Below, piece after piece: positions 11,473 to 40,894 of a stretch of 64,000 bases of DNA. A model generated the notes under the pieces. The model was not told the DNA's origin and did not search any database. It saw only the letters and a program-made list of their open reading frames with translations. Location: contig JAAOMT010000369.1 of NCBI GenBank assembly GCA_016748015.1, positions 124,001 through 188,000 of the forward strand, in the 5' to 3' direction. Origin of the DNA: Geosiphon pyriformis uo1 (lineage: Eukaryota; Fungi; Glomeromycota). The position numbers and the translations under genes were made by a program. The first letter of the stretch is position 1; each line of letters starts with the position of its first letter.

Positions 11473-12294
11473 TGTTATTTATAGAAGATAGAAATTATAG
11501 TAATATATATTAGCCAATCAGAAATAAATATAGTAAAATATGGAATTCCAGAATTCCTCTCAGAAAAATTACAAGATTTTAGAAATTACAGAATTCTTAT
11601 ACAAGGAATTGCAGGATTTCAGAATTCCAGAATTCTTTTCAAAGGAATTTCAGAATTCCTGGTGGAAAAAATAGAAAAATTGAAGAATCTTAAATATGTA
11701 TATATAGCAGTAGCATTAAAAGCAGAAAAGACAAATTTCACAGTTTAGATTTTATTTAAGCAATCTTCTAAATTCACAAATATTAATAAATAATTATTTG
11801 CTATCTTAATCTACTTTCTATTATTAGTACTTTATGTTGATAGTATCAAATACTTGATTATGCTGGAACAATAGCTCTTGATTATAGCTATTGATGGAAT
11901 ACTAACTTTTATTGCCTTGGTTTATTTCTTTATTTCTTTTATTTTATTTATTTTCTTTGTTATTTTTTGTTGTTGATTAATTGATTAAAAATTAAGTGTT
12001 GAGTATTAACATTAAGAATTGCTTAGTAAAAGACTTCTGTGAGAGGATAAAACATTTGAGATTAAGAATTGCTTATTAGAAGATTGCTGGCCATCAAGCC
12101 AAGAAAAAAATTGATGGAATTATGATTCCGAAAGACTATTGAAAACAACTATTGAATTTTTGTTTATTATACAAAGGACTTAACCAAAACCTTCAAACAA
12201 TCTAAATCTTCAGATTATAACAATTATAGCAGCTATTAGCACCAAGTTACGGGTTTGTTATTTAATTTGAAACTCCAAATAATTACCTGTAATA
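11473..12294 (+). repeat. Gypsy A 5' LTR (822 bp)
   Basis: Direct repeat of 20517-21482; U3 GGAATTNCA-type tandem repeats ~11540-11662; TATA-like GTATATATAG ~11698-11707. Confidence 0.95.
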
Positions 12295-12358: not shown

Positions 12359-15300
12359 GTGACAAAATTCGAAAAAACAAGGACAAACCATTTGGGATTT
12401 GCAAAATTCTTATTCCAACATTATCACACCCATCTCAGATTAACAAATAGTAATTGGTCAATAGAATCAGCTTTTAATTATTATGTTAATAAAAAAATTG
12501 CATACTACTTAAAAGATCAAGGAAATCCAAAATACATCTTTAACAATTTCTTCAGTGAACTACTTCAAAGCACCACATTGCCACAGAATTATTTATTTGT
12601 ACCACTAATCATGAAAATAAATAGAAAAATAGAAAAATACACCAAACAAAGATTTTTTATTATCTTTGCTAACAAAGGAAAAGAAAAATTACAAATGCCA
12701 ACAAAAATCCTAAAACAAATCCAACTACTCACTTAGAAAAAACAAAAATTTGATTCATCTGCTAATCCATTATATCATTACATACCTGGAAATACTATCA
12801 ATATAATAGATGCATCTATAGCAAGCATGATAATACCATTGAACAGAATCTCATTTCAAAATAAACAGAAGAAAACAGAGTTATTAGGAACATATGGCAA
12901 TTATTTTGAGAGATTTAAATTACAATTCCCAACACCATTAGGAACTCAATCACTACTACCACAACCAGATTTCAGACCCATTAGTTCTTAGGAAATAACT
13001 GACTCCAAGAAAAAAGAAAATAGCAATCAAGAAACTAATAAGCAAAATCCAATTCTAGAAAACCCAGAAATTCAAATTCCAATTATTCCAACTCAGCAAA
13101 ATCAGAACAATTCAAATACTGTCTCTATTGTTGCCCAAAACTTACCTCCAGTAATCATGATTGATCTACCATTAGTCTCATTAATCACTAAACAGCAATA
13201 GCAACAGCCACAACCACCATTCCAGCAGCAACCGCAACAGCAACCTTAACTCCAACTGCAACAACAATTACCATTAGTACTAATGGTATATACACCTATT
13301 GTCAAAATTGAAAAATTCACTGGCAAGAAGGACAATGCCCAAGTATAGCTTAACAACATAGAAAAAGCCATTGCAGTCAACAGATGAAATGACAATAGAG
13401 CTCTTTAAGTAATTCTTTATTTTCTCCAAAATACTGTCAATTTATGGTATTAAAGTTTAGCTGCAAACCACAAACTTTCCAAGAATTCAAACTTGAATTC
13501 TTGAGATATTTCAATAACAATAATAGCATTAACTACTTGGCAAATACCTTCACTACCATCAAGCAAGAAGAAAATAAAGCAGTCACTACCTACCTAGAAT
13601 GTCTCTACAGAAATTTGTGCCAAATTTAAGCCATTGATGCCAACTATTTTACAGTGGCCCAGATCTTGAATCAGTTTATCTGTAGACTATGTAGTAGCAT
13701 TCTTTAATGCATATGTCTATTACATTTAAGCACCCTTCAAGCTGCAGTTACATATGCCAGAGACTTTAAATCTATTGAACTAGAAGCCAATCATATCCAA
13801 ACCATAAATTTAGTAATTAATAGATTATCTGACTTGAATTCCAAATTGAAACAGTTCAGTGATTCAATCAATTAGAAATTAGAGAAATATTTAGCTAACA
13901 ATCAAGCAATCTATCAACCTTTACAATAATGTAATAATACAGAAAACTCAAATTATTTCCAAAATTAGGCATGCTCATCATTATCAACCAATTAATCGTG
14001 ATAACCAAAGATACATGCTACAATTGTGATAAACAAGATCATATTAGAGCTAATTGTCAAGTTTATAGCAATAATTTATAATTGGGAAATCAATATTAAA
14101 ACTCTAATCACAGATTTTAAGCTCTAAGTTATGACTCAAATCAAGATTAGTACCAACATAATTACACCCAAATGACACAACACCCAATATACATATCTCC
14201 AATATATCAACCACCACAGCCACAACTAATTTATCAACCTCAGCCCATTTAAATACTGTCACAAATAATTGTGTCCAACAGAAATCAGAGATCAAAAACC
14301 ATTTAACAAAACTGGAGATTAGCAATAGTTGTTTATTAACTAATTTTCAGTACATCCCAACAACTCTCAAAATCACATCTAAGAAATTTGTAAACTAAGT
14401 ACACCCAAAATCTGAGTTTCCAAAACTATTTAAGTCTCCTGGTTACCTTAGAAGATATCTTACCCAGCACTTAGAGACCAACCAAAAACCACTTACTAAC
14501 AATATTCTACCAATAACTATTATCAATAACAATTTGTTAGCAGCTATCTTTCAAAAAACAGTCTAAAATGTCTCTTTTTAGTGGTGCTGCTCTTGAAAAA
14601 AAACTTATAACTGCAATATATACTGATGCTAAAACAGATGGTTACCCTATCAAATTAATTTTGAACAGTAGGTCAGCAGACAGCATTATCACATAACAAC
14701 TTATGGACCAATTAGGTCGCCAAGTTGATTATGCTGCCAGCATCCAAATTATTATAGCCAATAGAGCAACCAAAACCCCTATTGGTGAAATTGACAACTT
14801 CTTTTTAGAAGTCAATGACATCACCATTCTCATCAAAATCTTAATTATGGAAGCCATCCAATACTAAGCTCTTGTTGGAAATAACTGGCTGATTAAAGCA
14901 AATGCTATACTCAATTGGACCACTTAGAAATTACAACTCAGTCAAAATAGACACTACACCTAAATACCAGTTATGTATGGTCATTTCAAATTACACACCA
15001 CATCAGCACTGTTAATTGATTTGGAAGAAGAAGTTTTATGGGCTGACAATGACCATAATGAACTACTGCTCATACTCTTATAAAACAACAAAAAAAAAGG
15101 AAAGCAAAAAGAGGAAGTTATCTGAAATAACAATCAAATATTGTGAACTGACAACAATTAGAACAAACAAACACCAAGTTGGATGTAAGAAGAAACTGAA
15201 AAAGGGAAAAGAAAAGAGAAAAAAGAAGAGCCAACACCAGCAACTACTATAACTTATATCTCATACATCTATACTCTACTACAATCTTCTAACTATTGCT

Positions 15301-18300
15301 GACCAAAACTAGTGTGCATTGATTGTGGCAAGAAGTTGTCATCAATAAGTACATACTGTGGCAATAATGAAAAATATCCAATGACAACAAAATTTTATTG
15401 TTGTTTTTGTGTTCTTGAACAGTTTGAATGACCAAAAAGATAAGAAAAATGGGACAATGAGTCTTGTTTTATCTGTGAAACTATCTTGCCCAATAAAAAA
15501 ATGTGGAATGACATTTCTAAATAGAGAGAAACTTGTGATAAATTGTGCCAATACATGATTCTAATTAGTGACTGAATAAGAAAAAGAACTCCCATAAAAG
15601 CAGTCTGAAGAAGAGCAGTCAAATGGCTAAATAGTTGTTCACATGATAACAATAAAATTTGACATATGGCCCTTACCAAAATTAAAAAAGTGTTATCAGA
15701 AGAAATAAAAATGATCAAAAACAACTTACCAAAATTCATAAAACTTGATTGGAGCCCAAATTCAGATATTGTCCTAAACCCTATGAACCCAAAACAATTT
15801 TATAAACATTACAAAAATTAGCATCCATCAGGAAAAAACAAGAACAATGTTTAGAGCAGTTGAATGCCTGATTGTGTTAATACTGCTTAATTCCCTGTGA
15901 CTTCCAATATTGTAATGAGTGTGACCTCATTTACAATCTACCACTGCACATGATCTACACAATCTTAGAAAAAGAAAAACCAATTAGCAGCTGTGTATTA
16001 AAATCAGAATCAACATTCAATTCCAATTCAAACTCCAACAACAACAATGATAAAAACAACAGTTTCAGCTCTGTCCAAAATAACAATAAAAATAACAATA
16101 ATTCAGATTTTAATTCAAACTCAGAACAATATATTGTGCTTTCTGATCTTACTAAGGAGCAGAAACTTAAATGGTTTAACAATAATAATAAAGATATTAT
16201 GTCAGAATGTGTACATAATACCAATGCCAAATTTGATCTAAGATATTCAGAAAAAAATGCCATTAAATTGGAACCATACTTGCACACATGCATTGATCTT
16301 AAAATAGCACTGGAAATCTTAGCAACAACAATAGTCTAATTAGCATTTAGGATTAGTTTAGCAAAAAGAGGAATCAATATCAGAAAAAGAATAATTGATG
16401 CAGAATATGTAAGAAATATTATTGCAATGCTACAAAATAACTCAGAAAAAGCCTATATCATAAAGCCAAATGAAAAGATAGCACAGACAATATTCTTGTT
16501 TCTGGTTAAAATAGCTCAATTGGTATCAGTAAGAAACAGAAAAGAATTAGGAATTACAGCTAGAAGAATTAGTGTATTCAGATCCATGAATAGAATAGAT
16601 GTATCAGTCAATATGGCAAAAGAGAAATTATCTCTATCTGTCAATCAATTTCTATTCCACCATATAACCAGTATATATTAGCTATAGAAAGGAGGTAAAA
16701 GATTAAGCTCAGATTTTTGAAGCAGAAATTACCATTTGTAAATCAGAAAAGATTGAACTTACCAATTTTTACATACCAGCCAAAAGCCCAAAACATATTA
16801 AAATTCTTATCTACAACACAACAGGAGATATCATTAAGATACTAAAAGGAACCACTATCAGATATTTAAGCATCAAAGTTAAAAAACAACCACCAAACAC
16901 CATTTCAGATTTTCTACAGCTTTGTGGATACATGAATATTACATTATAAACAATCTATGGATGGAATGAATGTTATTTGTTCTAACTAAAACAATTAGAA
17001 CAGATGAATTTGGGAAATCTAGATTCATTTCAACAGATACAACTCAAAATGCTACTCAACAATTTTACCAACATTTTTACAAGTGAAAATGAATTTAGTA
17101 GAACTAACATAATTCAACACCAGATTAAAACTGGAGATGCCATGCCAATAAAACAAAAAACATACCAAGTACTACCAGCCAGCCATAAAATTATCTGCCA
17201 AGAAATTAATAAAATACTGGATAATGGTTAATTTAACTATTAATAAGTTCATGGTTTTTACCAATTGTATTGGTTTGGAAAAAGAATGAAAAAATTTAGT
17301 TTTGTGTAAATTACCAAAAACTCAATAGAGTAACAAAAGAAGACAGCTACTCAACTCCAAAGATCCAAGAACTTTTTGATGCTTTTGGAAGAAAGAAATA
17401 GTTCTCAACTTTAGATTTAGACAGTGGTTATTGACAAGTAGCCATAAATTTAGCTAATAAAAAGAAGACCATATTCACAACAAGAGAAAGAAATTTTGAA
17501 TTTGAAGTTATGTCTTTTGGCTTAATGAATCTCTCAGCCACCTTCCAATAGTTAATGAAAATAGTTTACAGAGGACTATTGTGAAAATTAGTAGTTGTTT
17601 ACTTAGATAACACCAATGTGTTCTCTAAGATATTTAATAATTATTTACACTATTTCTAACAAATATTTGAAAGACTAAGAAGAGCCAGATTAAAATTGAA
17701 TACAATCAAGTGTTTTTTTGGAAAAACTAAATTTAAGTTTTTGGAACATATTGTAAGCAAAGATGACATCAAAACAGATCCAGACAAAATTGAGATAGTT
17801 AAAAACTTTTTAATACCTATCAACTTGACTAAATTACAAGCATTCTTAAAATTTGTGAGTTACTATCACCATTTCATCAAAAACTTTTCCAAACTGGCTT
17901 AGCCATTACATTAGCTCTAAACAAAAAACACCAAATATAAATGAATAGAAAAACAGTAAAAAGCTTTTGATATATTAAGAAAAAAGTTTATTCAAGCTCC
18001 AATACTAATCTATCCAGATTATAGCAAGTTATTCATAATTACAACCAATACATTAAGTCAAGCATTAGGAGCAGTATTATTTCAGAAAAAACCAAATAGA
18101 AAAGAACACCCAGTAGTATATACTAGTCACAGCTTAAGTCTAACTGAAAAAAACTATGAAACATTAGTATTGGAACACTTAGCAATCTATTGGACAGTCA
18201 TAAAATAAAAAAAATACTTAAGCCAAAAATTTAACATATACACTGACCATAAAGAATTGACTTCAATTCAGAAGCAAAAATTTGGAGATAATCACTATGT

Positions 18301-19816
18301 TAAATAAAAAATAAAACTTTTACCATTTAATTATACAGTACATTACAAAAAGAGAAAAGAAAATAGAAATGTTAACAGTTTGTTATGAATGAGACAAATC
18401 TAAAACTATTTCAATCCAAAAATATAACAAAAAATAAATACACAAAAATATCAACAACTTCAACACTATATTAATACCCAACAGTTTAAAAAGAAATTAT
18501 CTCTAAAGGAATAGAACAACATAAAACAACAATCCAAATATTTTATCACTTACCAAAATATATTATATTGAAAAAACAGAAAGGATCCAGACCAATCACT
18601 CAGAGTAATTACAGAACCAGAAAAAAAAACAATACTATTCAATATGCATTCAGATCTAACAATAGGACATTTCCATAAAGAAGCAACCATAGAAAAAACC
18701 AGAAAAAGATATTATTGGCCATTTATGTATCCAGACATCATTCAATATGTTCAAAATTGTGATGTTTGTCAGAAAAGAGAAGGAACAAGATCCAGTGAAC
18801 CATTAAGACCAATTAAAGTAAAACAACTATTTGATCAAATTAGAATTGACTTAGTTAGACCATTAACAATAACCAGTAGAGAAAACAGGTATATTGCAGT
18901 AGTCATAAATTATTTTACTAAGTGGCCAGAAACAAAAGCCATTCAAAGAGCAAATGCAGAATCCGTTGCTGAATTTGTTCATCAAGATTTGATTTGTTGA
19001 CACAGATGCCCAAAAAAATTACTATTTGACCAAGGAACTCACTTTGTAAATAGAATATTAGCAGAATTAAGTCAAAAATTTGGTATAAAAAGACCATTAT
19101 TATTATTATATTATCCACAAATCAATGGCTTAATCAAAAAGTTCAATAGAACATTGTGTGAAGCAATTGCCAAAATCAGCCAAAAAAATCAAGACAAATG
19201 GGATTTGTTTATACTATTAGTATTATTTACTTATCAGACAATGAAGCAAGACATTACACAAACAATACTATTTAAATTAATATATAATAGAACAGCAACA
19301 TTACCAGTTGAAATAGAAGTCAGCACATATCTAACTAAACCAATAACAAAAGACAATTTCCAAGAGACATTTTTAAGAAGAACATATAACTTAATGAGAA
19401 CACTAGAAAACAAACAGTAAAAAACAGCTAATAATATTCAAAAGTCACAAAAAAAACAAAAAGAAAGACATGATAATTAATTACTGGATAAACCAGTTGA
19501 ATTCAGGATTGAAGACAAAGTACTTTTACATTGTACCAAAGTGGAAAAACGATGGAGTGAAAAATTTGACTTCAAATGGGATAAACCATTTTACATAGAA
19601 GAAATTCTAAGGAATGAAGCTTATAAATTAAGATAAAACAACAAAATCTTAGCCAAAACAGCACATGGTAATTGACTGAAACCATATCACCATATAATAT
19701 TATCATTTACCAATAATATTTTACAACTGGAAGTACAACAAATACTAATTCAACCAAATAAGATTTTATGAGATCTGGAGCCAATTATAATCATTGAACC
19801 AAACATGACAAATTGA
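12359..19816 (+). pseudogene. Gypsy A gag-pol (CA, CCHC, PR, Cys-rich, dUTPase, RT, RNase H, IN)
   Basis: PR LILNSRSADS; RT YLDNT, KFLEHIVS; IN H..GHF..CDVCQ and IDLVRPL, FTKWPE; C-terminal SH3-like region; many stops. Confidence 0.92.
16166..16588 (+). pseudogene. dUTPase domain within Gypsy A Pol
   Basis: Degraded motifs AKFDL, RISLA, IIDAEY, EKIAQ, RRISVFRS, collinear (423 nt) with the B copy. Confidence 0.88.
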
Positions 19817-19829
19817 ATAACCAAAAGAG

Positions 19830-19839
19830 TATATAAAAA
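19830..19839 (+). promoter_or_regulatory. Putative internal TATA box for Gypsy A ORF3
   Basis: TATATAAAAA 42 nt upstream of the ORF3 start; the same motif at the same spacing in B and a similar one in C. Confidence 0.5.
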
Positions 19840-19871
19840 CACAGTATATGTGATAAAAGCAACAAAAAAAA

Positions 19872-20503
19872 ATAGAAATTACTGACAATATACACACACT
19901 GGCACAACTATTCTTCCAATTGATTCAACAACAGAATATGAAAATTACTATTAACTAACAAACCATTCGATATAAAAATACAAAAAAAAGACTTCAACAT
20001 GAAAAACAAAAAAAACAGAAAACACCATTGACAAGATAATAACAAAAGTAAAAGTGACAATAGAAATACAAACAGAAGGTGTATCATATTAAGAATTGAT
20101 AATAAAAATATGGAATTGGTAGATATAATAATTTTCAAGAAACTTTTGTTATTTCCACTTAGAATAATATCTGAATATTTAGAACTTATATATAGATAAA
20201 ACAAAACAATTATTTAACACAACAATACTACAACAACTTGAACAATTTGTGAGAAAAAACAATTTAACAACACTAGCAAGAGCTATTTATCAATTATATG
20301 CTAAATTTCAAGACTGACCAGAAATACTACTTAATACAGTAATGAACACAGTTATTACTAATCAAATGGGTAAAATAACCAATGCCCAATTTAAAGAATT
20401 ACAAACCAAAATAACACAAGTAATTCTTGAAAAAGAAGTCCAAGAAATAATCAAGAAAGAAGAATTAGAAAAGTTTAGAGATTTTGATAGAACTCAATAT
20501 TAA
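19872..20503 (+). pseudogene. Gypsy A ORF3, ~210 aa, unknown function
   Basis: Reconstructed (M)EITDNIHTLAQLFFQLIQQQN..CYFHLE*YLNI..LTTLARAIYQLYAKF..NQMGKITNAQFKEL..; start ATA (from ATG); ends at the PPT; homologous to B ORF3. Confidence 0.75.
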
Positions 20504-20516
20504 AAAAAAGGAATAA

Positions 20517-21482
20517 TGTTACTTATAAAAATAGAAATTATAGTAGTATATATTAGTCAATTAAAAATAAACATAGTAAAATATAGAATTCCAGGATTCT
20601 TCTTAGAGGAATTATAGGATTTCAGGAATTACAGAATTCTTATATAAGGAATTACAGGATTCCAGAATTCTAGAATTCCTCTTAAAAGAATTGCAGAATT
20701 TCTGGTGAAAAGAATGGAAGAATTGAGAAATCTTAAATATGTATATATAGCAGTAGTATTAGAAGCAAAAAAGACAGATTTCACAGTTTAAATTTCATCT
20801 AAGCAATCTTTTAAATTCACAAATATCAATAAATAATTATTTGCTATCTCAATCCACTTTCTATTATTAGCACTTTATGTTGATAGTATCAAATATTTAA
20901 TTATGTTAGAACAATAGCTCTTGATTATGGCTATTGATGGAATACTAACTTTTATTGCCTTGGTTTATTTCTTTATTTCTTTTATTTTTTTTTATTTTCT
21001 TTGTTATTTTTTGTTGTTAATTAATTGATTAAAAATTAAGTACTAAGTATTAACATCAAGGATTGCCTGGTAAAAAACTCCTGTGAAAGAATAAAACATT
21101 TGAGATTAAAGATTACTTACTAAAGAATTGCCAATTACCAAGCTGAAAAAAAATTGATGAAATTGCGATTCTAAGAGACTATTAAAAACAATCATTAAAT
21201 CTCTGTCCATTATACAAAGAACTTAACCAAAACCTTTATGTGTTTTTAGGCTAAGAATTCTGTCATATCGATTCTGTCTTTTCTGTTTCTAACACCAAAA
21301 TTGAAGGAGTGACTCCAAAAGAAATAAAAACACTGTGAATTGTTCAGTTAAACCAAAACCTTGGGTTCCTCTATCACTTTTTCCTCAATCCAAACCTTCA
21401 GATTATAACAATTATAGCAGTTATTAACACCAAGTTACAGGTTTGTTATTTGATTTGAAATCCCAAATAATCATCTGTAATA
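20517..21482 (+). repeat. Gypsy A 3' LTR (966 bp)
   Basis: Direct repeat of 11473-12294 with an extra ~150 bp (21236-21385). Confidence 0.95.
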
Positions 21483-23193: not shown

Positions 23194-23951
23194 TGTTACA
23201 GATGTTTATTTGGGATTTCAAGTCAAATAACAAATCCGTAACTTGGTGCTTGGTTGGTACTCAGGTGTTGATATCTGAAGGTTTTGGTTGATCTGAAGGT
23301 TTGGTTGTAGAGTTCTTTGTATAATAGACAGAAATTTAATAGTTGTTTTTAGTAGTCTCTTGGAATCACAATTCCATCAAAGTTCTTTTTTAATGTAGTG
23401 GCCAGTAATCTTCTTGATAAGTTATTCTCAAATCTATGAGTGTTCTACCTTTGTTTCACAGGTCTTTTACCAGTTCCTATGACGTTTGTATCTCAGCACT
23501 TAATCCTTAATCAATTTAGTAAAACCAAAGAAATAACAAAAAAAAATAAAAGCAAACAAAAGAAGATAAAAAAATAAATGGAAGCAATTGCAAGTTAATA
23601 TCCTGTCAATAGCCATGATTAAGAGCTATTGTTCTAGTGTGGTTAAGTATCAAATATTATTAATATAAAGTATTAATAGTGGAGAGTGGGTTAAAATAGT
23701 GAATAATTATTTATTGATATTTGTGATGTAGAAGGTTTTGAACTAATAGATTTTGCTCTTTCTACTTCTAATACTACTGCTATATATACATAATTTGGGT
23801 TCTATAAGATTACTCACATTCTTGAGCAATGTGTTATAATTTCTTAACCAATGCTCATATTGCTCCACATTGCTGAGCAATGTGCTCACGTGCTAACTAC
23901 TCACTTATTGGTCTACTATTTTCTGTATTTGTTTTCTTTTTATGAGTAATA
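23194..23951 (-). repeat. Gypsy B 3' LTR (758 bp)
   Basis: Matches 32357-32950 + 40700-40894; PPT AAATGGAGGAGATAA adjacent (23952-23966). Confidence 0.95.
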
Positions 23952-23967
23952 TTATCTCCTCCATTTT

Positions 23968-24598
23968 TTAATATTAAGCTCTGTTAAAATCTTCATTTTG
24001 AATTAATTCTAATACTTCTTTTTCAAGTATTGTTTGTTCAACTCTGTTTCTCATGTCTTCTACTATTGTTTATTCTTCCTTATTGGTTAATGGTTATGGT
24101 TTCCATGTTAGAGTGTAGTAGTATTTCTGGATAGTTCCGAAATATGTTGTGTAGTCAGTACATTGTTTTAACATGTAGTGTTGAATTTGTTTTCTTTTTA
24201 ATAAATTCTTCAATTTGTTGTATTATGTCTTGGTTGAATATTCTCTTGAATTTGTCAATATACAACTCCTGAATATTCAACTTTTGACCTAGCTGATAGT
24301 AGCAATATGATATTGGAAGTCATTCTGTTCATTGCTTTCAATTTTTTTTTGTAAGCTTTTCTGTTAGTGCCATAATAGATATTTTCCCAAAAGTGTTTTT
24401 CACTTTTTCTATTAAGTTGTCTGTCCAGTTTTTATCATTCTTTGGTAGTTGCTGATATGGTGTATTCTTTGTCTTTCTTTTGGTGTTTTGATAACAAATT
24501 ATTTGGGTGTTAATAACAATTTCTATGTTTAACTGTTGTTGACTTAAGACCTGGAACAATTGTTGAGCTATAGTGTGAATGTGATCTGGTATTTCTAT
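23968..24598 (-). pseudogene. Gypsy B ORF3, ~210 aa, unknown function
   Basis: (M)EIPDHIHTIAQQLFQVLSQQQLN..YCYYQLGQKLNIQELYIDK..TLHVKTMY*LHNIFRNYPEILL; TATATAAAAA at 24632-24641 (minus) 43 nt upstream. Confidence 0.75.
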
Positions 24599-24654
24599 TT
24601 TTTCTTGGTTGCTTTTGTTGTGTATACTGTGTTTTTATATACTTTTTTGGTTGT

Positions 24655-27600
24655 TTAATTTGATGTGTTTGGTTCAATGACTATGATTGGTTCCAGATCT
24701 CATGAAATCTCATCTGGTTGAACTAGTATTCTTTGTACTCCTAATTGTGGAATGTTATTGGTAGGTGATGATGCTATCTGGTGATATTGTTTCAGTCAAT
24801 TACCATGTGCTGCTTTGGCTAAGATTTTGTTGTTTCATCTTAATTTATAAGCTCCATTTCCAAGAATTTCTTCTATGTGAAATGGTCTATTCCATTTGGG
24901 GTCAAATTTTCCACTCCATTGTTTTTCCGCTTTGGTACAATGTAATAGTACTTTGTCTCCAATCTTGAATTCAACTGGTTTATTTGGTAGTTGGTTATCA
25001 TGTCTTTCTTTTTGTTTCTCTTGTGACTTCTGAATGTTATTGGCTGCTCTTTGTCACTTGTTTTCTAGAGTTTCTATCAAGTTATATGTTCTTTTTAGTA
25101 ATGTTTTCTGAAAATTATCTTCAATTATTGGTTCCACTAGATAAGTATTGACTTCTATCTCAACTGGTAATGTTGCTGTTTTACTGTATACTAATTCAAA
25201 TGGTGTTGCTTGTGTAGTGTCTTGCTTCATTGTCTAATAAGCAAATAATACTGATGGTATAAACAAATCCCATTCATCCTGGTTTTTTTGACTGATCTTG
25301 GCAATTGCTTCACACATTGTTCTATTGAATCTTTCTACTAATTCATTGGTTTATGAATGGTATGGTGATAACAATAGTCTTTTGATTCCGAATCTTTGAC
25401 TTAATTCTGTCAGTGTTTTGTTCACAAAGTAAGTTCCTTAATCTGATAATAGTTCTTTTAGACATCTATGTTGACAAATCAAATCTTGATAAACAAATTC
25501 GGCAACGGATTTTGCATCTGCTTTTTAAATTGCTTTTGCTTCTGGCCATTTAGTAAGATAGTCTATGGCTACTGCAATATATCTGTTGCCTCTGCTGGTA
25601 ATTGTTAATAGTCCAACTAAGTCAATCCCAATTTGATCGAATAGTTGTCCTACTTTGATTGGTCTCAATGGTTTGCTGGGTTTTGTCCCTTCTTTTTTTT
25701 AACAAGCATCACAATTTTGAACATATTGGATGATGTCTGAATACATTGATGGCCAATAATATCTTTTTCTAGTTCTTTCCATGGTTGCTTCTTTATAAAA
25801 ATGTCCTGTTGTTGGATCTGAATATATATTGAACAATATTGTCTCTTTTTCTGGTTCTGTAATTACTCTTGTTGGCTGGTCTAAATTTCTTCTGTTTTTC
25901 TGGTAAAGTATATTTTGATGATTAATAAAATATTTTGATTGTTGTTTTATGTTTCTTTGTTCTTTTTGAGATAATTTCTCTTTGAACAATTGGGTATTTA
26001 TATAATATTGTAGTTGTTAGTATTTTTGTGTATTCATCTTTTATTATATTTTTAAGTTAAAATGTTTTTAAATTTGTCTTATTTACGACAATCTGTTAGC
26101 ATTTCCATTGTCTTTTTCCTTTTTATAATGTACTGTATAATTGAATGGTAAAAGTTCTATTTTCTATCTGACATGACAATTGTCTGCAAATTTTTGTTTC
26201 TGAATTGAAGTCAATCTCTTATGATCTGTATATATTTCAAACTTTTGGCTCAAGTATTTTTTTTATTTCATAACTGCCCAATAAATTGCTAAATGTTCCA
26301 GTACTGGTGTTCCATAGTTTTTTTTGGCTGGACTTAAGCTTCTACTAGTGTAAACTACTAGATGTTCTCTTCTATCTGGTCTTTTCTGTAATAGTACTGT
26401 TCCCAATGCTTGACCTGATACATCCGTAGTAATAATGAATAGTTTGCTGTGATCTGGATACATCAATACTAGAGCTTAAATAAGCTTTCTTCTCAGTGTG
26501 TCGAACGCCTCTTGTTGAGCTTCAGTCTATTCATACTTCACATTTTTGGTTTGTAAATGGTGAAGTAGCTGGGCTAGTTTAGAAAAGTCCTTGATAAAAC
26601 ATTGATAATAGCCTGTAAATCCCAAAAATGCCTTTAGTTTTAACAAGTTTGCTGATACTGGAAAGTTCTTTACTATTGCAATCTTATTTGGATCTGTTTT
26701 GATTCCATCTTTGCTCACTATATGTTCTAAAAACTTGAGTTCAGTTTTTCCAAAGAAATATTTGGTTGCATTTAGCTTTAGTCTGGCTTTTTTTAATCTT
26801 TTAAACACTTGTTGGAGATAATGCAGATGATCATTGAATGTTTTTAAGAACACATTGGTGTCATCCAAGTATATGACTACTGATTTCCATAGTAATCCAG
26901 TATAGACAATTTCCATAAACCATTGGAATGTTGCTAGAGTATTTATCAATCCGAATGGCATGACTTCAAACTCAAAATTTCCCTTTCTTGTGGTAAATGC
27001 TGTTTTTTCTTTGTTGGCTGGGTTCATGGCTACTTGTCAGTAACTACTATCTAAATCCAGTATTGAGAACCATTTATTTCCTCCAAAAGTGTCAAATAGT
27101 TTTTAGATCTTTGGAGTTGGATAGCTATCACTCTTTGTTACTCCATTCAGTTTCTGGTAGTCTACACAAAAGCAAATTTTCCTATTTTTCTTCCAGACTA
27201 GTACCACTGATAACGACCATGGATTTATTGATGACTGAATTAGCTCATTGTCAAGCATTCAGTTAATTTCTTGATGAATAATCTCATGGCTAGCTGGTGG
27301 TACTCTGTATGCTCTTTGTTTAATTGGCATTGCATCTCCAGTTTTAATTTGATGCTGGATTATGTTAGTTCTGCCAAATTTATTTTCATTGGCAAAGATG
27401 TCATTGAATTTGTTGAGTAATATCTTTAGTTGCATCTGTTAGAGTGGGTCTAGATTCCTCATGTTTATCTGTTTCAATTGTTCTGGTTAGAGCAAATAAC
27501 ATTTGCTTCATCCATAAATGGTTTGTAATGTGATGTCCACATATCCACAAAGTTATAGAAAATCTGAAATGTGGTTTGGTGGTTGATTCTCAACTTTGGT

Positions 27601-30600
27601 GGTTAAATATTCAATAATAGTTCTTTTTGGTATTTCAATAACACTTTCTGTTGTGTTGTAGAGGAGAATTTTGATATTTTTGGGGCTTTTGGCTGATATA
27701 TAGAGATTAGTGAGTCCAATCTCTCCTGATTTGCAAATAGTGGCTTCTGCTTCAAACAATTGAGCTTGATCCTTTACTTCTCTTTTTATAGCTAACATAT
27801 ACTGGTCATATGGCAGAATAGAAATTGTTTGACAGGTTGAGATAATTTCTTCTTTGTCAACAATTTTTTCTTCTGTCATATTAACTGGTATATTTATTCT
27901 ATTCATTGATCCAAATCTCTGTATTTCTCTAGCAGTAATCCCTAATTTTTTTTTGTTTTTCACTGATATTAGCTGAGCTACTTTCACCAGAGGTAAAAAT
28001 ATTGACTGTGCTATCTTTTCATTTGGATCTATAATATATGCTTTTTCTGAGTCATTTTGTAGCATAGTAATGATATTTCCTACATATTCTGTGTCAATTA
28101 TTCCTCCTCTGATGTTGATTCCTCTTTTTGCTAAACTACTTCTGGATGCTAATTGAACCATTGTTGTTGCTAGAATTTCCAGCACTATTTTCAGATCGAT
28201 ACAAGTGTGCAAATGAGGTTCCAATTTGATAAAATTTTTCCCCAGATATCTCAAATCAAATTCTGCATTAGTATTATGTACATGTTCAGGCATAATACTT
28301 TCATTATTATTGCTGAACCATTTCAGTTCTTGCTTTTTGGTAAGGTCAGGGAGGGTAATATATGTTTTGGAGTTTGAATCGGGGTCCAAATCATTGTTAT
28401 TTTTGTTGCCGTTTTAAGTGGAGCTAGAACCAGTGTTTTTGTCATCATCGTTGTTGGAGTTTGAATCAGAATTAAAAACTGATTCCAATTCTAATATGCA
28501 GCTGCTTATTGGTTTGTCTTCTTCTGGGATTGTGTAGATCATGCATGGTGGTAAATTGTAAATGAGATCACACTCTTTACAATACTGAAAGTCACATGGG
28601 ATTAAGTAATATTAACATAATTAAGTGTTCAACTGCTCTAAATGCTGCTCTTGTTCTTCCTTAGTGAGTGCCAAATGCTGGTAATGTTCATGGAATTCTT
28701 TTGAGTTATCTTCAATGTTGCCAAATATGTCAAAGATTTGGATGTATTTGGGTTCAGGAAGAGATAGAGGGTTGTTTTTGATTTCCAGTAGTTTGCTGGT
28801 AGTTGTGCCTTCTGCTTTCACATACACCATTCTCCAGAGTTCATGTTTGTTGTGGAGATATCCTTCCAATTGTTGCAATGCTCTTTTCTAGGTGTCATTA
28901 ATTGGTGTTCTTTTGCTTATCCAGTCATTAATTAGAATCATATACTGACACATCTCGTCACATATTTCTCCACACCCAGGAATGTCATTCCACATTCCTT
29001 TGTCAGACAAAATGGTTTCACATGCGAAACACAGTTGGTTGTCTCACTTTTCTTGTCATTTTGGTCATCCAAAACATTCTATGACACATGAGTGGCAATA
29101 GAATTTTGTTGCTATGGAGTATTCCTTGTCGTTGCCACAGCATATGCCCATTGACAACAATTTCTTGCCGCAATTGACACACTCTAATTTTGGTTAATGA
29201 TAATTGGATGGTTGTGATAAAACATAAGTGTATAAACTATAAGTGCTACTGGTGAGAGTGGTTTCTTTTTTCTTCTCCTTTCCCTTTCTCTTGTCTGTTT
29301 CTTTTCACTCCCAGTTTGCTGATTTGTCTTGGTTGTTATCAGTTTCTCAGGCTTGGTCAATATTTCAGGTAAGTTTTTCCTTCTGCTTTTTTTGTTATTG
29401 TTGTCCCAGAAGAGTATTGGCGGCAACTTGTTGTGGTTTTCATCAGCCCAAGAGACTTGGTACACTTCCCAAGTAGATTTCTTTTTTTCTTTTTCAAACT
29501 CGATGAGTGGTGCTGATGGCATGGTGATGGGCTTGAAGTGGCTACACATAGCTGGTACACATGTGTATTGACTATTTTGACTAAGCTGAAGCTCTTGGGT
29601 GTTCTAATTGAGTGTTACATGGGTTTTGGGCAGCCAGTTATTGCCAATGAGTGCTTGGTACTGAGTGGCTTTCATAACTAATACCTTGATTGGTACAATA
29701 ATGCCATTGACTTCAATAGATAGAGCATCTATTTTACTAATTGGTGTCTTGGTGGCTCCATCAGTGGTAATTATCCTTGCACTGGCAGCTCGATTAATTT
29801 GGTGACCTAATTGGTTCATGAGCTGTTTTGTGATGATGCTGCCAGTTGATCTACTATCTAGGATCAGTTTGATAAACTAACCATCAATTTTGGCATCTGT
29901 GTACATTACTGTAATAGGTTTTTCCTCGAGTGTGGCTCTACTGAACAAAAAAGTTTCTGTCGGTTCCTCAATTTTGAAAGAAAATATAACTGCTAGAGAC
30001 TTATCTTCTGTGACAGTGGCTGGCAGAATATTGGTAAGCAGTTACTTCTGTTTGGGTTCCCAGTTGTTGGATGAGGCATCTTCTGGATTAACCAAAAGAC
30101 TTAAATAGTTCTGAGAACTCGGGTTTTGAGTATACCCAGTTCCTGAACTCCACTGTCATGATCCGTATGGCTGGTTGGGTAAACTGAAGATTGGTTGGTG
30201 AACAACTATTGCCAATTTCTAGTTTTGGGTGACTCTCGATCTAGGGTTTTCTGATGTCATTTAAGCTGGGTTTGATGGTGGTGTTTGAACTGTAGGTGTC
30301 TGATAAATTATTTGTGGCTGTGGTGGTTGATATATTATCAGTGGCTGCAGTTGATAAACTGGAGATTAATATACAGGTGGTTGATATATTGGCTGTTGTG
30401 TCATTGGCAAGTAAGTTGGTTGATATGTTGCTGAACTTAATTGATAACTTGGAGTTGGAAACCTGTGATCAAGGTTTTGATATTGATTTCCCAATCATTG
30501 GTTTTCTATTTTTAATTGACAATCAATTCTCAAATGTCCTTGTTTACCACAGTAGTAGCAGATATGCATTTCTTGCTACCACGGCTAATTGGATGATGAT

Positions 30601-32294
30601 AAAGAATGCGACTGATTTTGTGGACAATTTGTGATTCCTAAATTATTGTGTTGTTGGGGTGGCTGATAAATTGTGCGATTGTCAACTAAGTATCTCTTTA
30701 ATTATTGATTGATGGAATCACTGAATTGTTTCAATTTGGAATCCAATTCAGATGATCCATTCATCATTAGGTTAATGGCTTGGACATGATTAGCTTTGAG
30801 TTTAGCTGCTTCAAAATTTTGGGTGTTGGTAACTGCGGCTTAAAGATTTGCTGGATGCATTAGACATACACGTTGGAGGATGCTACTGCACAGGTCTCTA
30901 ATAAATTGGTTTAGGATTTGTGGTGCTGTAAAATAGTTAACCTGGATTGCTTGAATCTGGTGCAAATTTCTATGGAAGCATCCTAGGTAAGTAGTAACTG
31001 TTTCATTTTTCTCTTGTTTGATAGTGGTGAAAGTGTTTGCTAGCTGATTAATATTATTATTGTTGTTAAAGTATTGTAGGAATGCAAGCTTAAATGCAGC
31101 AAAATCTTGGAGTTTGTTAGCCAAGCTTTGATACCATGAATCAGCAGTATCTTGGAGAAAATAAAAAATGGCCTACATGGCTTTGGTGTTATTCCAGCTG
31201 TTGGCTGTGATGGCTTTCTCCACATTGTTTAGCCATACTTGGGTGTCATCTTCTTTGCTGGTGAATTTCTCAAGTTTTGCTATCAAAACATAGGCTATTG
31301 GATCGACGTTTGGTTGTTGCAGTTGTTGTTGCAGTTATTGAAGTGGCTGCTGTGGTTGTTAAGGTGGTTGAAGTAACTGCTGTTGTTGTTTGTCAATTGG
31401 TAGAGCTGGATTAATCACGATTACTAGAGGTAAGTGTTGTTGATTATTGATGTTGGGGTTTCAATCATTCTGATTGTGCTGTGTTTGAAAATTTGGAGTT
31501 TCAATTTCCAAATTTTCCAAATTTAGATTTTGCTGAGTCTGAAAATTCAGGGTTTTAATGTTCAGGTTTTCTGTGATCAGGTTCTGGTAAGTAAATTCTT
31601 GATCTTCAAATTCTTTTTCCTCTTCTTTTTGTTCTTCTTCTGAATCCATTACTTCCCAGGGACTTGTAGTTCCAAAATCTGGTTGCAGTAATAGAGATTG
31701 AAGTTCTGATGACATTGGAGATTGTGACTTAAATCCTTCAAAATATGCACCATATGGTCTTAGAAGATTTTCTTTCTTTTGTTTACTCTGAAATGGGAAT
31801 CATCCAAAGGTTGATGTCACATGTGATGTGGACGCACCTGTTGATGTAATGTTAATAACACTTCCAGGTATATAGTGGTATGATGGATTTATTGGTAATT
31901 CAACTCTGGTTTTCTTTCAAGTGAGTGGTTGTATTTGTTTTGGTGTTACTGTTGGTGTTTGTAACCTTCCTTTGTCTTTGTTTATGTAGGTGATGGGGAA
32001 TTGTTGTTGTGTGTATCTTTCAATGGTTTGGTTGATTTCCCTAATAATTGGTGCAAAACTGTAGTTTCTTGGTAAACTGGTGTGTTTAAATAATTCTGTA
32101 TAAAAGTTTTCTCTTCCAGCTTCAATGTTAACTGTTCCTCCTAAGCAGTCTGTGATTTTATTATTGACATAGAAATTAAAGACTGATTCTGCTGAGAAAT
32201 GATTATTGTTCAATCTTAATTGTTGGCTATACTGTTGAAACAAAAATTTGGCAAATCCTAAATGGTTTGCTCCTATGATTTCTGATTCTGCCAC
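24655..32294 (-). pseudogene. Gypsy B gag-pol, ancestrally one ~2500-aa ORF
   Basis: CYYCGKQGHLRIDC knuckle; PR LILDSRS..IGNNWL; RT KTAFTT..MPFGL..YLDDT; RNase H TDVSG; IN GHF..CDAC. Only one frame change (~29390, A-run), at a point that is in frame in A. Confidence 0.93.
27904..28326 (-). pseudogene. dUTPase domain within Gypsy B Pol
   Basis: Five trimeric-dUTPase motifs: AEFDL, RSSLA, GGIIDTEYVG, EKIAQ, REIQRFGS; the frame is still open. Confidence 0.93.
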
Positions 32295-32337
32295 TTTTGG
32301 ATAATTGTGGTTGGTGCTGGTTTTTTGTAAGATTATA

Positions 32338-32356: not shown

Positions 32357-32950
32357 TATTACAGATGTTTATTTGGAGTTTCAAGTCAAATAACAAATCT
32401 GTAACTTGGTGCTTGGTTGGTACTTGGGTGTTAATATCTAAAGGTTTTGGTTAATCTGAAGATTTGGTTGTGGAGTTCTTTGTATAATGGACAGAGATTT
32501 AATAGTTGTTTTCAGTAGTCTCCTAAAATTGCAATTCCATCGAATTTCTTTCTCAGCATGGTGGCCAGTAATCTTCTTGGTAAGCTATCCTCAAATCTAT
32601 AAGTGTTCTACCCTTGTTTTACGGGTTTTTTACCAGTCTCTATGACATCTGTATCTTAGCACTTAATCCTTAATCAATTTAGTAAAACCAAAGAAATAAC
32701 AAAAAGAAATAAAAGCAAACAAAAGAAGATAAAGAAATAAATAGAAGCAATTGCAAATTAATATTCCGTCAATAGCCATGATCAAGAGCTATTGTTCCAA
32801 TATGGTTAAATATCAATTACTATTAACATGAAGTGTTAATAGCAGAGAGTGGGTTGAGATAGTAAATAAGTATTTATTGATATTTGTGATGTGGAAGGTT
32901 TTGAACTGATAGATTCTGCTTTTTTTACTTTTAATGCTACTGTTATATAT
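32357..32950 (-). repeat. Gypsy B 5' LTR, R/U5 portion
   Basis: Aligns to 23194-~23787; ends inside the TATATATA box. Confidence 0.93.
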
Positions 32951-33630
32951 TGTTATGGGTTAGAGTAACAAGCTAATAGATAACAAGAGAGAACAAGATT
33001 GTAGGGTGATGGAAATAATCAAAGAGAATTTAACTTCAAAGAGTGAATTAAATAAGTATGGATTCAATGTGTGAGATCAGTCTCATAAAATATCTCAGTC
33101 ACTATATTTTTTAAAGATAACCGGGGAATCTGAAGGTAGAGGAATAGTCTATACTGTCAACAAATGATCACACTTAGTATAATTTTATGCCTTACATTGA
33201 CACTCTTAGAATTCAATATCAAGTATCAGATGTGTTCTTCAGTTATATTTTATTCAATAATCTTCAAATGTTACAATTACACATTTCAGGAAAAAAGTAA
33301 AAAATAACCAACAAGTAATCTTTTATCTTTAAGATGTTCAGATACTTGAAAGTAGGGAAAGAAAAATTAGCGATAAGGGAAGAATTGAGATAAAAGTTGT
33401 TATTTTATTTATTTAATTTCCTTGATTTTTTACATGCTTTTCTACAGCTAAAAAATTCATCGCTTATATAGCTGTCAAACGTAATTAATGATCAGGTCAA
33501 TGATCAGGTCAACAGTCAGGTCATTGATCAGATCAATGATTACTTTCTAAAAATAGAATGGCTAATTTTTATGACATCATTGGCTAATACATGTAATAAT
33601 TAATAAGAAGTATAAGTTTCAACTGTAACA
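32951..33630 (-). repeat. Gypsy C 3' LTR (680 bp)
   Basis: TGTTA..TAACA; ~5 copies of 12-bp GGTCAATGATCA at ~33485-33541; PPT adjacent. Confidence 0.95.
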
Positions 33631-34255
33631 TTATCCTTTCCAAAAAGATTGAGCTTCAGCAAAATCAAGCTATTCATGGGATAATCTATTTGAAGGGTTT
33701 TATCTAACTCAAAGCTAACTAGTTTGTTGAAGTTTTTTGTAGATAAGATATATAACACTTGAAGTGAAATGAGTTTTATATTTAAGAGACCAAATCTTTG
33801 TATTAGAGTTTTGGCTCTTTTAGCAATAGTTAAAACTCTTGAGACATCTAACCGTATAATGCCCAAAATTTCTGCCTGTATTTCTGAAGTTGTTTTTTTC
33901 ATGAGTTTCATATCCTCTATGATTTCACCAAGATGACCATAGAGTTTTAATTGCCTTCCATATGAAAGTTTTTGTCTATGGGTAAGATTTTTTAAAGTGT
34001 TTTTTCAATTGTGTTGGAAGGTAGAAGTATAGCTGCTGTTATACTTTTCAACAGATATTTATCTATTTTACTACCAATTCTTTCTCTTCTGGTAGTAGTT
34101 TTCTTTGGTCTAATAACAGTATGTGTTCTGTTGTTATCAGTTATGGTAGTTTGTTTTCCAATGATCAAAATAGCATTTGGATAGTTTTTGATCCAATACT
34201 CATAGAGAGTATAGAAGACATTTTGAATGTTTTGATCCAGAAAATAATTGTTCAT
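33600..34255 (-). pseudogene. Gypsy C ORF3, ~215 aa, unknown function
   Basis: ORFs 33992-34255 and 33600-33911 join via one frameshift (..RQLKLYGHLGEII..VLTIAKRAKTLIQRFG..ISLQVLYILSTKNFNKL); intact ATG; TATAAATAAAT at 34291-34301 (minus). Confidence 0.75.
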
Positions 34256-34349
34256 GTTGATTGAAAATACCTCTATTTTGGAAATAGTGCATTTATTTAT
34301 ACTTGATTTTTGCTAATCATTTGAGTCGGTATTACCACAACAAGCAGTC

Positions 34350-37300: not shown

Positions 37301-38368
37301 TCTGTTAAAGGTTTTTTTAAGAATATTATAATAGGGCCAGCAGATTAGCTTGCCATTTACCATGATTCCTTCTTTGTTAACTTTAACATTGTCTAGTGGC
37401 TTGTCATTGCTGATAAAGATGGTATAAGTAAGTTCAGTAGTTTTTTCTTGTTCTTTTTGATCTTCTTTATCATCACTTTCATTATCATCTGATTTATCTG
37501 ATTGTTCTTCTTCTTGGTTCTGTTTGGTTGCTGGAGGAGTTGTCTAATGATGGCATTTAACCACAATGGGTTTTTTACCACATCTGATGGTTAGCTCACA
37601 CAGTTCATAGTCAAGTAGTGCTTTGGCTTTCTTAAGCTACTTATTACCAACAATGATGGTATACTCTTTTGCTTCAAATACTTTCATATCTGTTTCAATG
37701 CTGATACTATTGATACGAACAGGAATAGCTTTGGCTATGCTCAGGTCTTTCTTTTTGTCACCATGTACATTGGTCATTGGTCTTGTGGAAGACTCATCAA
37801 TTTTTCTGCCAATTGCTTCAAGAAAGTGTTTGGCAATTATATTAACAGATAATCCACTGTCTAAGATCAGGTCAATGAAGTAACCAGCCACTTGGGCTTT
37901 ACAAATCAGAGAAGTGACATTGCTGTTGTCAGTGAGTTCAGCTTAGCAAGAGCATTTATTGGTTTTTGGTGTCTTTTTTTTTGGTATTAATGATTTGTAA
38001 AGATCTTTTCTAAACTGTAGATGAGTCATTAGTTGGCCAAATATAATGTGTACAGGCATTTCCATGAGATCTTTGACAACAAAATAGGGTCCAGATTTTT
38101 GTACAATTTCTGGGAGTTCCAATTTTGGAGGATTTTTAAAAACTTTAGCCTTTAGTGGTTCATTGTTATCAGCAGTTGATGTAGAGGCTTTCTTTGGATC
38201 TAGAACGAAATCAATCTTGGCTTTCTTCTTCTTTTTTGTTGATTTAGAGGTGTTGATTGCTAATTCATTCATGTCATGGTCATTATTAGTTAGGTTAAAA
38301 GCATAAAAGGGGTTTTCTTCTGGTTGGCTTGCACTCTCACTCTTTGGAGGTGCACCTACCAATTTAAA
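34350..38368 (-). pseudogene. Gypsy C pol (PR, RT, RNase H, IN)
   Basis: PR LILDSGLS; RT WAFPVVVV..CIDY, KTAFIT..MPFGLTNAP..YLDDII; RNase H NADALSR; IN H..HFG..CNIC. Confidence 0.93.
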
Positions 38369-39904: not shown

Positions 39905-39933
39905 ACAATAGGAAACAAAGTGGATTTTGACAA

Positions 39934-39950
39934 CCTCATAGGGAGCACCA
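39934..39950 (-). promoter_or_regulatory. Primer-binding site of Gypsy C
   Basis: TGGTGCTCCCTATGAGG 6 nt from the 5' LTR. Confidence 0.85.
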
Positions 39951-39956
39951 CTTTTA

Positions 39957-40695
39957 TGTTATGGGTTGAAGTAACAAGCTAATGAATAGCAAGGGAGAAC
40001 AGGATTGTAGGGTGATAGAAATAATCAAAGAGAATTCAACTTCAAAAAGTGAATTGAATAAGTATGGATTCAATGTGTGAGATTAGTCTCATAAAATATC
40101 TCAATTGCTATACTTTTTAAAGATAACTGGGGAATCTGAAGATAGAGAAATAGTCCATACTGTCAACAAATAATCACATTTAGTATAATTCTATGCCTCA
40201 TGTTAGCACTTTTAGAATTCAATATCAAGTATCAGATATGCTCTTCAGTCATATTTTATTCAATAATTTCTAAATGTTGCAATTACATGTTTCAGGAAAA
40301 AGGTAAAAAATAACCAACAAGTAATCTTTTATCTTTAAGATGTTCAGATACTTGAAAGTAGGGAAAGAAAAATTAGCAATAAAAGAAGGATTGAGATGAA
40401 AGTTGTTATTTTATTTATTTAATTTTCTTGATTTTCTACATGCTTTTCTATAGCTAAGAGATTTATTGCTTATATAACTGTCAAAAGTGGTCAATGATCA
40501 AGTCAATGACTAGGTCAATGATCAGGTTATTGATCAGGTCAATGATTAGGTCATTGATTAGGTCAACAATCAGGTTATGATCAGGTCATTGATCAGGTCA
40601 ATGCTCACTTTTTAAAAATAGAGTGGCTAATTTATATGACATCATTGGCTAATACATGTAATAATTAATAAGAAGTATAAGTTTCAATTGTAATA
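39957..40695 (-). repeat. Gypsy C 5' LTR (739 bp)
   Basis: Direct repeat of 32951-33630; 9-10 copies of the 12-bp unit at ~40489-40606. Confidence 0.95.
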
Positions 40696-40699
40696 ATAT

Positions 40700-40894
40700 A
40701 CATAATTTGGGTTCTATGAGATTGCTCACATTCTCAAGTGATGTGCTATAATTTTTCAAGCAATGCTCATATTGTTGAGCAATATGTCATATTTTCTTGA
40801 TATTGGTCCACATTGCTGAGCAATATGCTCATATGCTAACTACTTGCTTATTGGTCTATTATTTTCTGTATCTGTTTTCTTTTTATGAGTAACA
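40700..40894 (-). repeat. Gypsy B 5' LTR, U3 portion
   Basis: Aligns to ~23788-23951; TGCTCA..TGAGCA palindromic repeats. Confidence 0.93.

What the first reader, a model, noticed from the sequence alone, without database searches (positions are those of the whole stretch)
19830..20503. Conserved non-Env third ORF with its own internal TATA box in two Gypsy lineages: candidate self-encoded transactivator or anti-silencer
Seen: A (19872-20503), B (23968-24598) and C (33600-34255) each carry a ~200-215 aa sense ORF between the pol stop and the PPT. Each has a TATA box 42, 43 and ~46 nt upstream. The blocks align by eye even between the distinct A/B and C families: CYFHLE*YL / CYYQLGQKL / LYGHLGEII; LTTLARAIYQLYAKF / VLTIAKRAKTLIQRF; NQMGKITNAQFKEL / QVLYILSTKNFNKL. 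There is no signal peptide or TM helix; the protein looks helical with a basic patch. Known: Ty3/Gypsy 3' ORFs are usually env-like and spliced; foamy viruses express the Tas transactivator from an internal 3' promoter; VANDAL VANC proteins are sequence-specific anti-silencers. Inference: ORF3 is a separately transcribed regulatory accessory protein.
Basis: partly seen in the sequence, partly recalled or inferred. Interest (0 to 1): 0.85.

Follow-up and report, generated by a model that had tools for sequence, protein, structure and literature searches.

The report
Extra non-envelope genes in fungal retrotransposons
Three decayed jumping genes of a soil fungus each carry a small extra protein gene behind a TATA box, where retroviruses keep their envelope gene; the protein is likely a separately expressed helper that may bind and switch on its own element, but this is untested and the two versions are not shown to be related.

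Summary
Real, but less unified than claimed. Elements A, B and C are decayed Ty3/Gypsy retrotransposons; named relatives are all from the glomeromycotan fungus Geosiphon pyriformis. Each has a TATA box 42, 43 and 46 nt before an extra sense gene after pol. All three genes are broken here, but intact natural copies exist (211 aa for B, 218 aa for C). A and B are homologous under purifying selection (dN/dS about 0.25-0.3). C has distant full-length metagenomic homologs. C's gene overlaps the PPT and ends inside the LTR. No Env features or family, PDB or fold match were found. A three-helix module is predicted in the C family. New here: each family's U3 holds its own tandem motif array, as for VANC targets, which makes a transactivator/anti-silencer role testable (about 30%). 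Transcription is untested. The scan noted similar genes in two other genomes. Extra 3' ORFs are a known kind; these are new variants.

The parts
11473..12294 (+). Element A 5' LTR, with U3 array (period 39, 11543-11657); PBS-like TGGTGCT follows
12400..19816 (+). Element A gag-pol region, decayed (gag, dUTPase, RNase H, integrase hits); end at 19816 uncertain
19830..19836 (+). TATA box TATATAA, 42 nt before ORF3 of A; lies in a 20-nt block identical in B
19872..20503 (+). ORF3 of A, broken (ATA start, 9 stops, 1 frameshift); 38% identical to P0087
20504..20516 (+). Polypurine tract of A
20517..21482 (+). Element A 3' LTR; U3 array of GAATTCCA-type motifs 20585-20700; LTR TATA at 20742
23196..23951 (-). 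Element B 3' LTR; U3 cluster of ATTGCTC/GAGCAAT motifs about 23814-23887; LTR TATA at 23788
23968..24598 (-). ORF3 of B, broken (ATA start, 6 stops, 1 frameshift); 76% identical to intact P0087 over residues 1-180
24635..24641 (-). TATA box TATATAA, 43 nt before ORF3 of B
24650..32300 (-). Element B gag-pol region (gag, zinc knuckle, protease, dUTPase, RT, RNase H, integrase, weak SH3_Tf2-1)
32359..32950 (-). Element B 5' LTR, part downstream of the C insertion
32951..33630 (-). Element C 3' LTR; 12-nt tandem array 33487-33540; LTR TATA at 33470
33600..34255 (-). ORF3 of C (1 stop, 1 frameshift near 33965); overlaps the PPT (about 33631-33641) and ends 31 nt inside the LTR
34295..34301 (-). 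TATA box TATAAAT, 46 nt before ORF3 of C; includes the likely pol stop; no variant at 5% or more among 733 contigs laid on 34245-34355
34351..34359 (-). One copy of the C U3 motif TGACCTGAT, 58 nt upstream of the internal TATA
34320..39900 (-). Element C gag-pol region (gag, protease, RT, RNase H, integrase; no dUTPase hit); RT-RH 42-44% identical to A/B
39957..40695 (-). Element C 5' LTR; 12-nt tandem array x10 at 40489-40607
40696..40894 (-). Element B 5' LTR, U3 part upstream of the C insertion

Best explanation
Each element carries a third, protein-coding accessory gene after pol that is likely transcribed from its own TATA box and whose soluble helical product would bind the element's own LTR repeats to keep it transcribed in a heavily methylated genome. 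Shown: the gene, the TATA spacing, purifying selection between A and B, long-term conservation of the C protein, absence of Env features, CpG loss, and family-specific U3 motif arrays next to each LTR TATA box. Inferred: a short 3' transcript from the internal TATA to the 3' LTR (about 0.6); DNA binding by the three-helix module predicted for the C family (about 0.4); the U3 arrays as its targets and activation or anti-silencing as the effect (about 0.3). The A/B and C proteins are treated as two families that may or may not share an ancestor.
For: Intact natural copies. A vs B dN/dS 0.25 over 179 codons, pol domains 0.12-0.24; on a DNA-level alignment transversions fall 34/32/53 on codon positions 1/2/3, p 0.007. 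Four distant C homologs at 29-34% identity, collinear from Met1; the two complete ones end like C in a F-x-E-G-D-D-V type tail, which in C is the PPT and LTR start read as protein, so they are likely 3' genes of LTR elements too. TATA at 42-46 nt in two lineages whose RT-RH is 42-44% identical; family state in C. Third-position A/B differences fall to 8 of 100 in the last pol codons before the TATA against 63 of 300 before them, p 0.002. AlphaFold: helices 94-109, 117-128, 132-148 at pLDDT about 80-87 from residue 101; the third helix keeps a basic IA-x-RA-x-K/T-L pattern in all 6 of the 10 rows that cover it. U3 arrays are family-specific: motif counts in the A/B/C 3' LTRs 11/0/1, 0/6/0, 0/0/4. 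CpG observed/expected 0.04-0.15. VANC proteins bind motifs that pile up as tandem repeats (PMC5735166, passages).
Against: No fold match: 0 hits at E<=0.001 in PDB and BFVD, best VIA Z 5.0; the DNA-binding rows (CHD1 C-terminal domain 4.3, DnaA 3.7, Spo0J 3.7, TnpE 3.4, CENP-B 3.3) are in the noise band. Whole-model pLDDT 55, pTM 0.46; the A/B protein was never folded. The basic patch is not kept in distant homologs. The drop in divergence before the TATA is not significant for transversions alone (2/100 vs 15/300, p 0.26), and in A/B the TATA may be pol coding sequence. A YAG lies 20-31 nt before each start, so splicing is possible. The U3 motif recurs near the internal TATA only in C; it also has two other non-LTR hits in the window. 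U3 repeats are common in LTRs and may simply bind host factors (established knowledge). ORF3 dN/dS is higher than that of RT.
Confidence: 0.33

Rival explanations
1. The accessory gene is real and separately expressed, but works after transcription or in the particle: RNA packaging or export, nuclear entry, integrase targeting, or blocking host RNA silencing.
For: All evidence for a selected soluble protein fits equally; no significant DNA-binding fold; proteins are basic, pI 8.4-9.7; bdelloid ORF3s include unrelated enzymes (PMC5408684, passages).
Against: No chromodomain, RNase or other known domain hit; it does not account for family-specific U3 arrays, though it need not.
Confidence: 0.35
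2. ORF3 is expressed like env, from a spliced LTR transcript (or by read-through or re-initiation after pol), and the TATA boxes are by-products of AT-rich pol tail sequence.
For: CAG at -30 (A), -31 (B), TAG at -20 (C) before the start; 4 of 94 proteins held are gene models that join integrase sequence to C ORF3 just before its start (P0063, P0081, P0082, P0085); the C box holds the pol stop; the A/B box may be coding. ORF3s are typically spliced (PMC5408684 passage; PMC7264820).
Against: Same spacing in two distant lineages at a 4-7% chance each; the gene models are predictions, not transcripts; TATAWAW occurs only 0.8-0.9 per kb in the element bodies.
Confidence: 0.25
3. The 3' ORFs are neutral captured or accidental frames amplified with the elements.
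For: All three copies here are broken; named homologs come from one species only (85 of 85, 8 of 8).
Against: Codon-position bias between A and B; collinear C homologs at about 30% identity; pol is as broken as ORF3 in the same copies.
Confidence: 0.04
4. ORF3 is a diverged Env or movement protein.
For: Env position and sense orientation; 4 of 20 C copies reach a 19-residue hydropathy of 1.6-1.8.
Against: P0087 peaks at 0.44 and 16 of 20 C copies stay under 1.6; 0-2 cysteines; no hydrophobic N-terminus; no Pfam, PDB or BFVD match.
Confidence: 0.03

Closest known systems
Sense additional ORFs between pol and the 3' LTR of Ty3/Gypsy elements (aORF-3S; PMC7264820, parts 1-2 of 3 read)
   Same: Position, orientation, presence across copies of a family, unknown function.
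   Different: Described aORF-3S are mostly env-like, often with TM segments and spliced; these lack Env features, have a TATA box upstream and are fungal.
Maize Grande gene23 (aORF-3R; as reviewed in PMC7264820)
   Same: Accessory gene in the 3' internal region with its own promoter; nuclear protein; regulatory role proposed.
   Different: gene23 is antisense; these are sense. Own promoter is shown for Grande, only predicted here.
Foamy virus Tas from the internal promoter (PMC4929722 abstract; listing)
   Same: 3' accessory gene in sense orientation with an internal TATA-type promoter predicted; a copy of the U3 motif near the internal TATA in C.
   Different: No env, no sequence or fold match; binding to LTR and internal promoter is shown for Tas and untested here.
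VANDAL VANC anti-silencers (PMC5735166, passages)
   Same: Fast-evolving accessory protein beside family-specific tandem motif arrays in a methylated genome.
   Different: VANDALs are plant DNA transposons; no sequence similarity seen in Pfam scans; demethylation untested.
Bdelloid non-envelope ORF3s (PMC5408684, passages)
   Same: Family-specific ORF3 of about 210-230 aa in dUTPase-bearing Gypsy-type elements; unrelated ORF3s in the same slot.
   Different: Those are GDSL, DEDDy, coiled-coil or TM proteins; none of these matched here.

Membership tests
Ty3/Gypsy LTR retrotransposon (elements A, B, C) | LTR pair, PBS, gag, PR-RT-RH-IN order, PPT | tested here: met
   (A: RT and protease had no Pfam hit but A aligns to B)
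aORF-3S | Sense ORF between pol and 3' LTR | tested here: met
   A and B end just before the PPT; C overlaps PPT and LTR start
aORF-3S | Present in many copies and conserved as protein | tested here: met
Env / env-like | Signal peptide and transmembrane anchor | tested here: not met
   hydropathy scan of P0087 and 20 C copies, (no dedicated predictor was available)
Env / env-like | Similarity to a fusion protein family | tested here: inconclusive
   no hit; absence from a list does not exclude
Env / env-like | Spliced subgenomic mRNA | not testable with these tools
   no RNA run listed
One ORF3 family shared by A/B and C | Significant sequence or profile similarity | tested here: not met
   hhalign probability 0.1-0.6%; pairwise shuffle p 0.045-0.88 over 12 tests; 0 of 10 HMM cross-scores above shuffles, fraction 0.17-0.87. 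Alignments are shallow
One ORF3 family shared by A/B and C | Same fold | not tested
   both fold jobs went to the C family
Foamy-virus Tas-like transactivator | Internal promoter active upstream of the gene | tested here: inconclusive
   TATA box present; no transcript data
Foamy-virus Tas-like transactivator | Binds and activates LTR and internal promoter | not testable with these tools
   shared motif near the internal TATA in C only
VANC-like anti-silencer | Family-specific motifs in tandem arrays in non-coding parts | tested here: met
   not specific to this mechanism
VANC-like anti-silencer | Binding to the motif and loss of methylation on cognate copies | not testable with these tools
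   needs EMSA/ChIP and methylome
Helix-turn-helix DNA-binding domain | Three-helix bundle matching a known HTH fold | tested here: inconclusive
   three helices predicted; matches only at Z 3.3-4.3, rmsd 3.1-5.0, 60-89 aligned

The most novel reading that the evidence does not exclude
Fungal Ty3/Gypsy elements have evolved a foamy-virus-like circuit: an internal promoter drives a small DNA-binding protein that recognises tandem motifs in its own family's U3 and activates or unsilences only that family, with protein and motif co-evolving as in VANC.
Probability: 0.25. Interest if true: 0.8.

Novelty: new variant of a known kind. Interest (0 to 1): 0.47.

Why it matters
The function of extra 3' ORFs in LTR retrotransposons is an open question (PMC7264820). 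LTR elements cover 41.2% of the G. pyriformis genome (PMC11952901 passage), and these genes sit in databases as host 'hypothetical proteins'. Intact natural copies plus family-specific U3 arrays give a direct cognate-versus-non-cognate test. A positive result would show a self-encoded, family-specific activator in a retrotransposon and help explain such an expansion under methylation.

Tried and rejected
No whole genome is held, so multi-copy dN/dS and TATA surveys across families could not be run. One search queried B in the wrong frame and found P0087 only through its C-terminal 16%. No RNA holder listed; runs X2 and X3 gave 3 and 0 laid contigs, which says nothing on expression. A/B-C homology: blastp, global/local shuffles, HMM cross-search and hhalign all at chance. 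First fold of C was unusable (pLDDT 42). Fold searches gave no significant match. Pfam, PHROGs and PDB sequence searches gave nothing above cut-off. ESM Atlas: P0087's first and third hits were unnamed Mucoromycota clusters (0.94, 0.93) but recognition was below threshold; P0024 gave no usable hit. Locus scans of metagenome, viral (92, 109) and prokaryote genome contigs (110) found no relative, so the DNA context of the distant homologs is inferred from their C-termini only. The single deep HMMER search used the C profile; the A/B family has had no such search. I recalled a widespread orphan helical family of mycorrhizal fungi with a similar basic helix; one search returned no such proteins, so that lead is unsupported. 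U3 motifs near the internal TATA: absent for A and B. Literature searches listed no paper on such an ORF in Glomeromycotina; the library is partial and no supplements were read. The five LINE/flank frames were not scanned against Pfam.

Full report
Setting. The window is an AT-rich stretch of decayed retroelements. Pfam scans of nine sense frames show three Ty3/Gypsy elements: A (+, LTRs 11473-12294 and 20517-21482), B (-) and C (-); A and B carry dUTPase, C gave no dUTPase hit. RT-RNase H is 69% identical between A and B and 42-44% between A/B and C. C is inserted in the 5' LTR of B. LTR pairs differ almost only by transitions (91 of 93, 66 of 69, 52 of 52) and CpG is nearly gone (0.04-0.15 of expected). 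All named homologs are Geosiphon pyriformis hypothetical proteins (85 of 85, 8 of 8).

The observation. The TATA boxes are where stated: 19830, 24641, 34301, at 42, 43 and 46 nt before the first codon. Shuffles of the upstream 200 nt give such a box in a 20-nt slot 7%, 3.5% and 4.4% of the time. In C the box is the family state: 733 contigs of run X1 were laid on 34245-34355 and none of the 11 variable sites falls in it; since A/T sites rarely vary anyway, this shows it is old, not that it is selected. The ORFs are not open in this window (A 9 stops, B 6, C 1, one frameshift each) and A and B begin with ATA. Intact natural copies exist: P0087, 211 aa, 76% identical to B over 180 residues, and 20 copies of 218 aa among 85 C hits. 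Two placements need correcting. C's gene runs over the PPT and ends 31 nt inside the LTR, and its TATA holds the likely pol stop. In A/B the apparent pol stop may be decay, as 24 other pol codons of 1357 aligned are stops in both copies.

Selection. A and P0087 align at 38% over 162 residues, E 6e-31. Pairwise A-B dN/dS is 0.25 over 179 codons (0.31 for the core), against 0.12 for RT-RH, 0.19 for dUTPase and 0.24 for integrase; decay after insertion pushes all these towards 1. A DNA-level alignment gives 34, 32 and 53 transversions at codon positions 1, 2, 3 (p 0.007). For C, a profile search of 1.84 billion representatives gave 27 hits, four of them distant and unnamed (E 1e-18 to 8e-6; 29-34% identical). 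They align from the first Met; the complete ones end in a tail like C's, which in C is the PPT and LTR start read as protein. I infer that they are 3' genes of related LTR elements; their DNA could not be fetched.

A/B versus C. No test supports homology: hhalign probability 0.1-0.6%, pairwise shuffle p 0.045-0.88 in 12 tests, 0 of 10 HMM cross-scores above shuffles, blastp with the distant homologs E 2 and 12. Similar length, position, TATA spacing and a roughly collinear global alignment leave remote homology open, perhaps at even odds; unrelated ORF3s in one slot are known from rotifers (PMC5408684, passages).

The protein. Not Env-like: P0087 peaks at 0.44 hydropathy, 16 of 20 C copies stay under 1.6, cysteines 0-2, pI 8.4-9.7. 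No family or PDB hit above cut-off. The model of a distant C homolog (27 rows; pLDDT 55, pTM 0.46) has a low-confidence N-terminal helix plus three strands and a confident three-helix module at 94-148. Fold searches found nothing significant; of 16 of 50 VIA rows on the C-terminal module, 9 are by my reading DNA-binding proteins, all at Z 3.3-4.3, which is noise level. The basic patch of C (residues 49-63) is missing in the distant homologs, while a basic third helix is kept.

Cis elements. Each family has its own motif array just before the LTR TATA box: A a 39-40-nt unit with GAATTCCA, B ATTGCTC/GAGCAAT, C a 12-nt unit in 4.5 and 10 copies. Counts across the three 3' LTRs are 11/0/1, 0/6/0, 0/0/4. 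A and B LTRs align at 74% only from the end of U3 onward, with slight residual U3 similarity. The C motif recurs 58 nt before the internal TATA, but also at two other non-LTR places, and A and B show no such copy. Third-position divergence between A and B drops in the last 100 pol codons (8 of 100 vs 63 of 300, p 0.002), not significantly for transversions (p 0.26). A YAG lies 20-31 nt before each start and 4 of 94 proteins held are gene models joining integrase to C ORF3 there, so splicing stays possible.

Mechanism. Most likely single account: the internal TATA drives a short RNA ending in the 3' LTR, the protein enters the nucleus, binds the family's U3 array and sustains LTR transcription under methylation. 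The gene and its selection are shown; promoter use, DNA binding and target are inferred; overall 0.33. A post-transcriptional or particle role is about as likely when all its forms are summed (0.35). No RNA data were obtained.

Known systems. Extra sense ORFs after pol are a recognised class, mostly env-like; Grande gene23 has its own promoter but is antisense (PMC7264820, parts 1-2 read). A fungal Gypsy figure legend lists an additional ORF of unknown function (PMC2864245, passages). Tas binds LTR and internal promoter (PMC4929722, abstract); VANC motifs accumulate as tandem repeats (PMC5735166, passages). Passages of 10.1101/2021.03.30.436303 and PMC11952901 mention no such ORF for the terms searched. 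Seven searches listed no description of these genes. The scan's own notes e1-7557680 and e1-7507750 report similar genes on other genomes; they are unchecked, and sequence look-ups found no look-alikes.

Verdict. Real accessory genes, two undescribed protein families, one plausible and testable regulatory model, no functional proof. New variant of a known kind; interest 0.47.

Noticed in passing
window 32951-40695 within 32359-40894 (-): Element C is inserted in the 5' LTR of B, inside B's LTR TATA box, with ATAT duplicated on both sides; this splits B's promoter.
   Followed up: partly
window about 15000-16100 (+, A) and 28400-29500 (-, B): A long cysteine-rich and acidic insert lies between protease and dUTPase in A/B pol; no Pfam hit. 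Possibly a zinc-binding domain.
   Followed up: no
window 19547-19846 (+) vs B: Synonymous-position divergence between A and B falls in the last 100 pol codons, hinting at an overlapping cis element or recombination.
   Followed up: partly
window 1-7000 (+), 44600-51300 (-), 55700-62400 (+), fragments near 9650-11220 and 21800-23100: Decayed LINE-like elements with endonuclease-, RT- and RNase H-like stretches, read by eye from the translations printed and from repeats; not scanned.
   Followed up: no
proteins P0091-P0095, P0101, P0102, P0104, P0108: Many database gene models fuse ORF3 pieces to gag, integrase or LINE-like sequence; they are probably annotation chimeras of nested decayed elements.
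   Followed up: no
window 21237-21385 (+): A's 3' LTR holds about 145 nt that its 5' LTR lacks.
   Followed up: no
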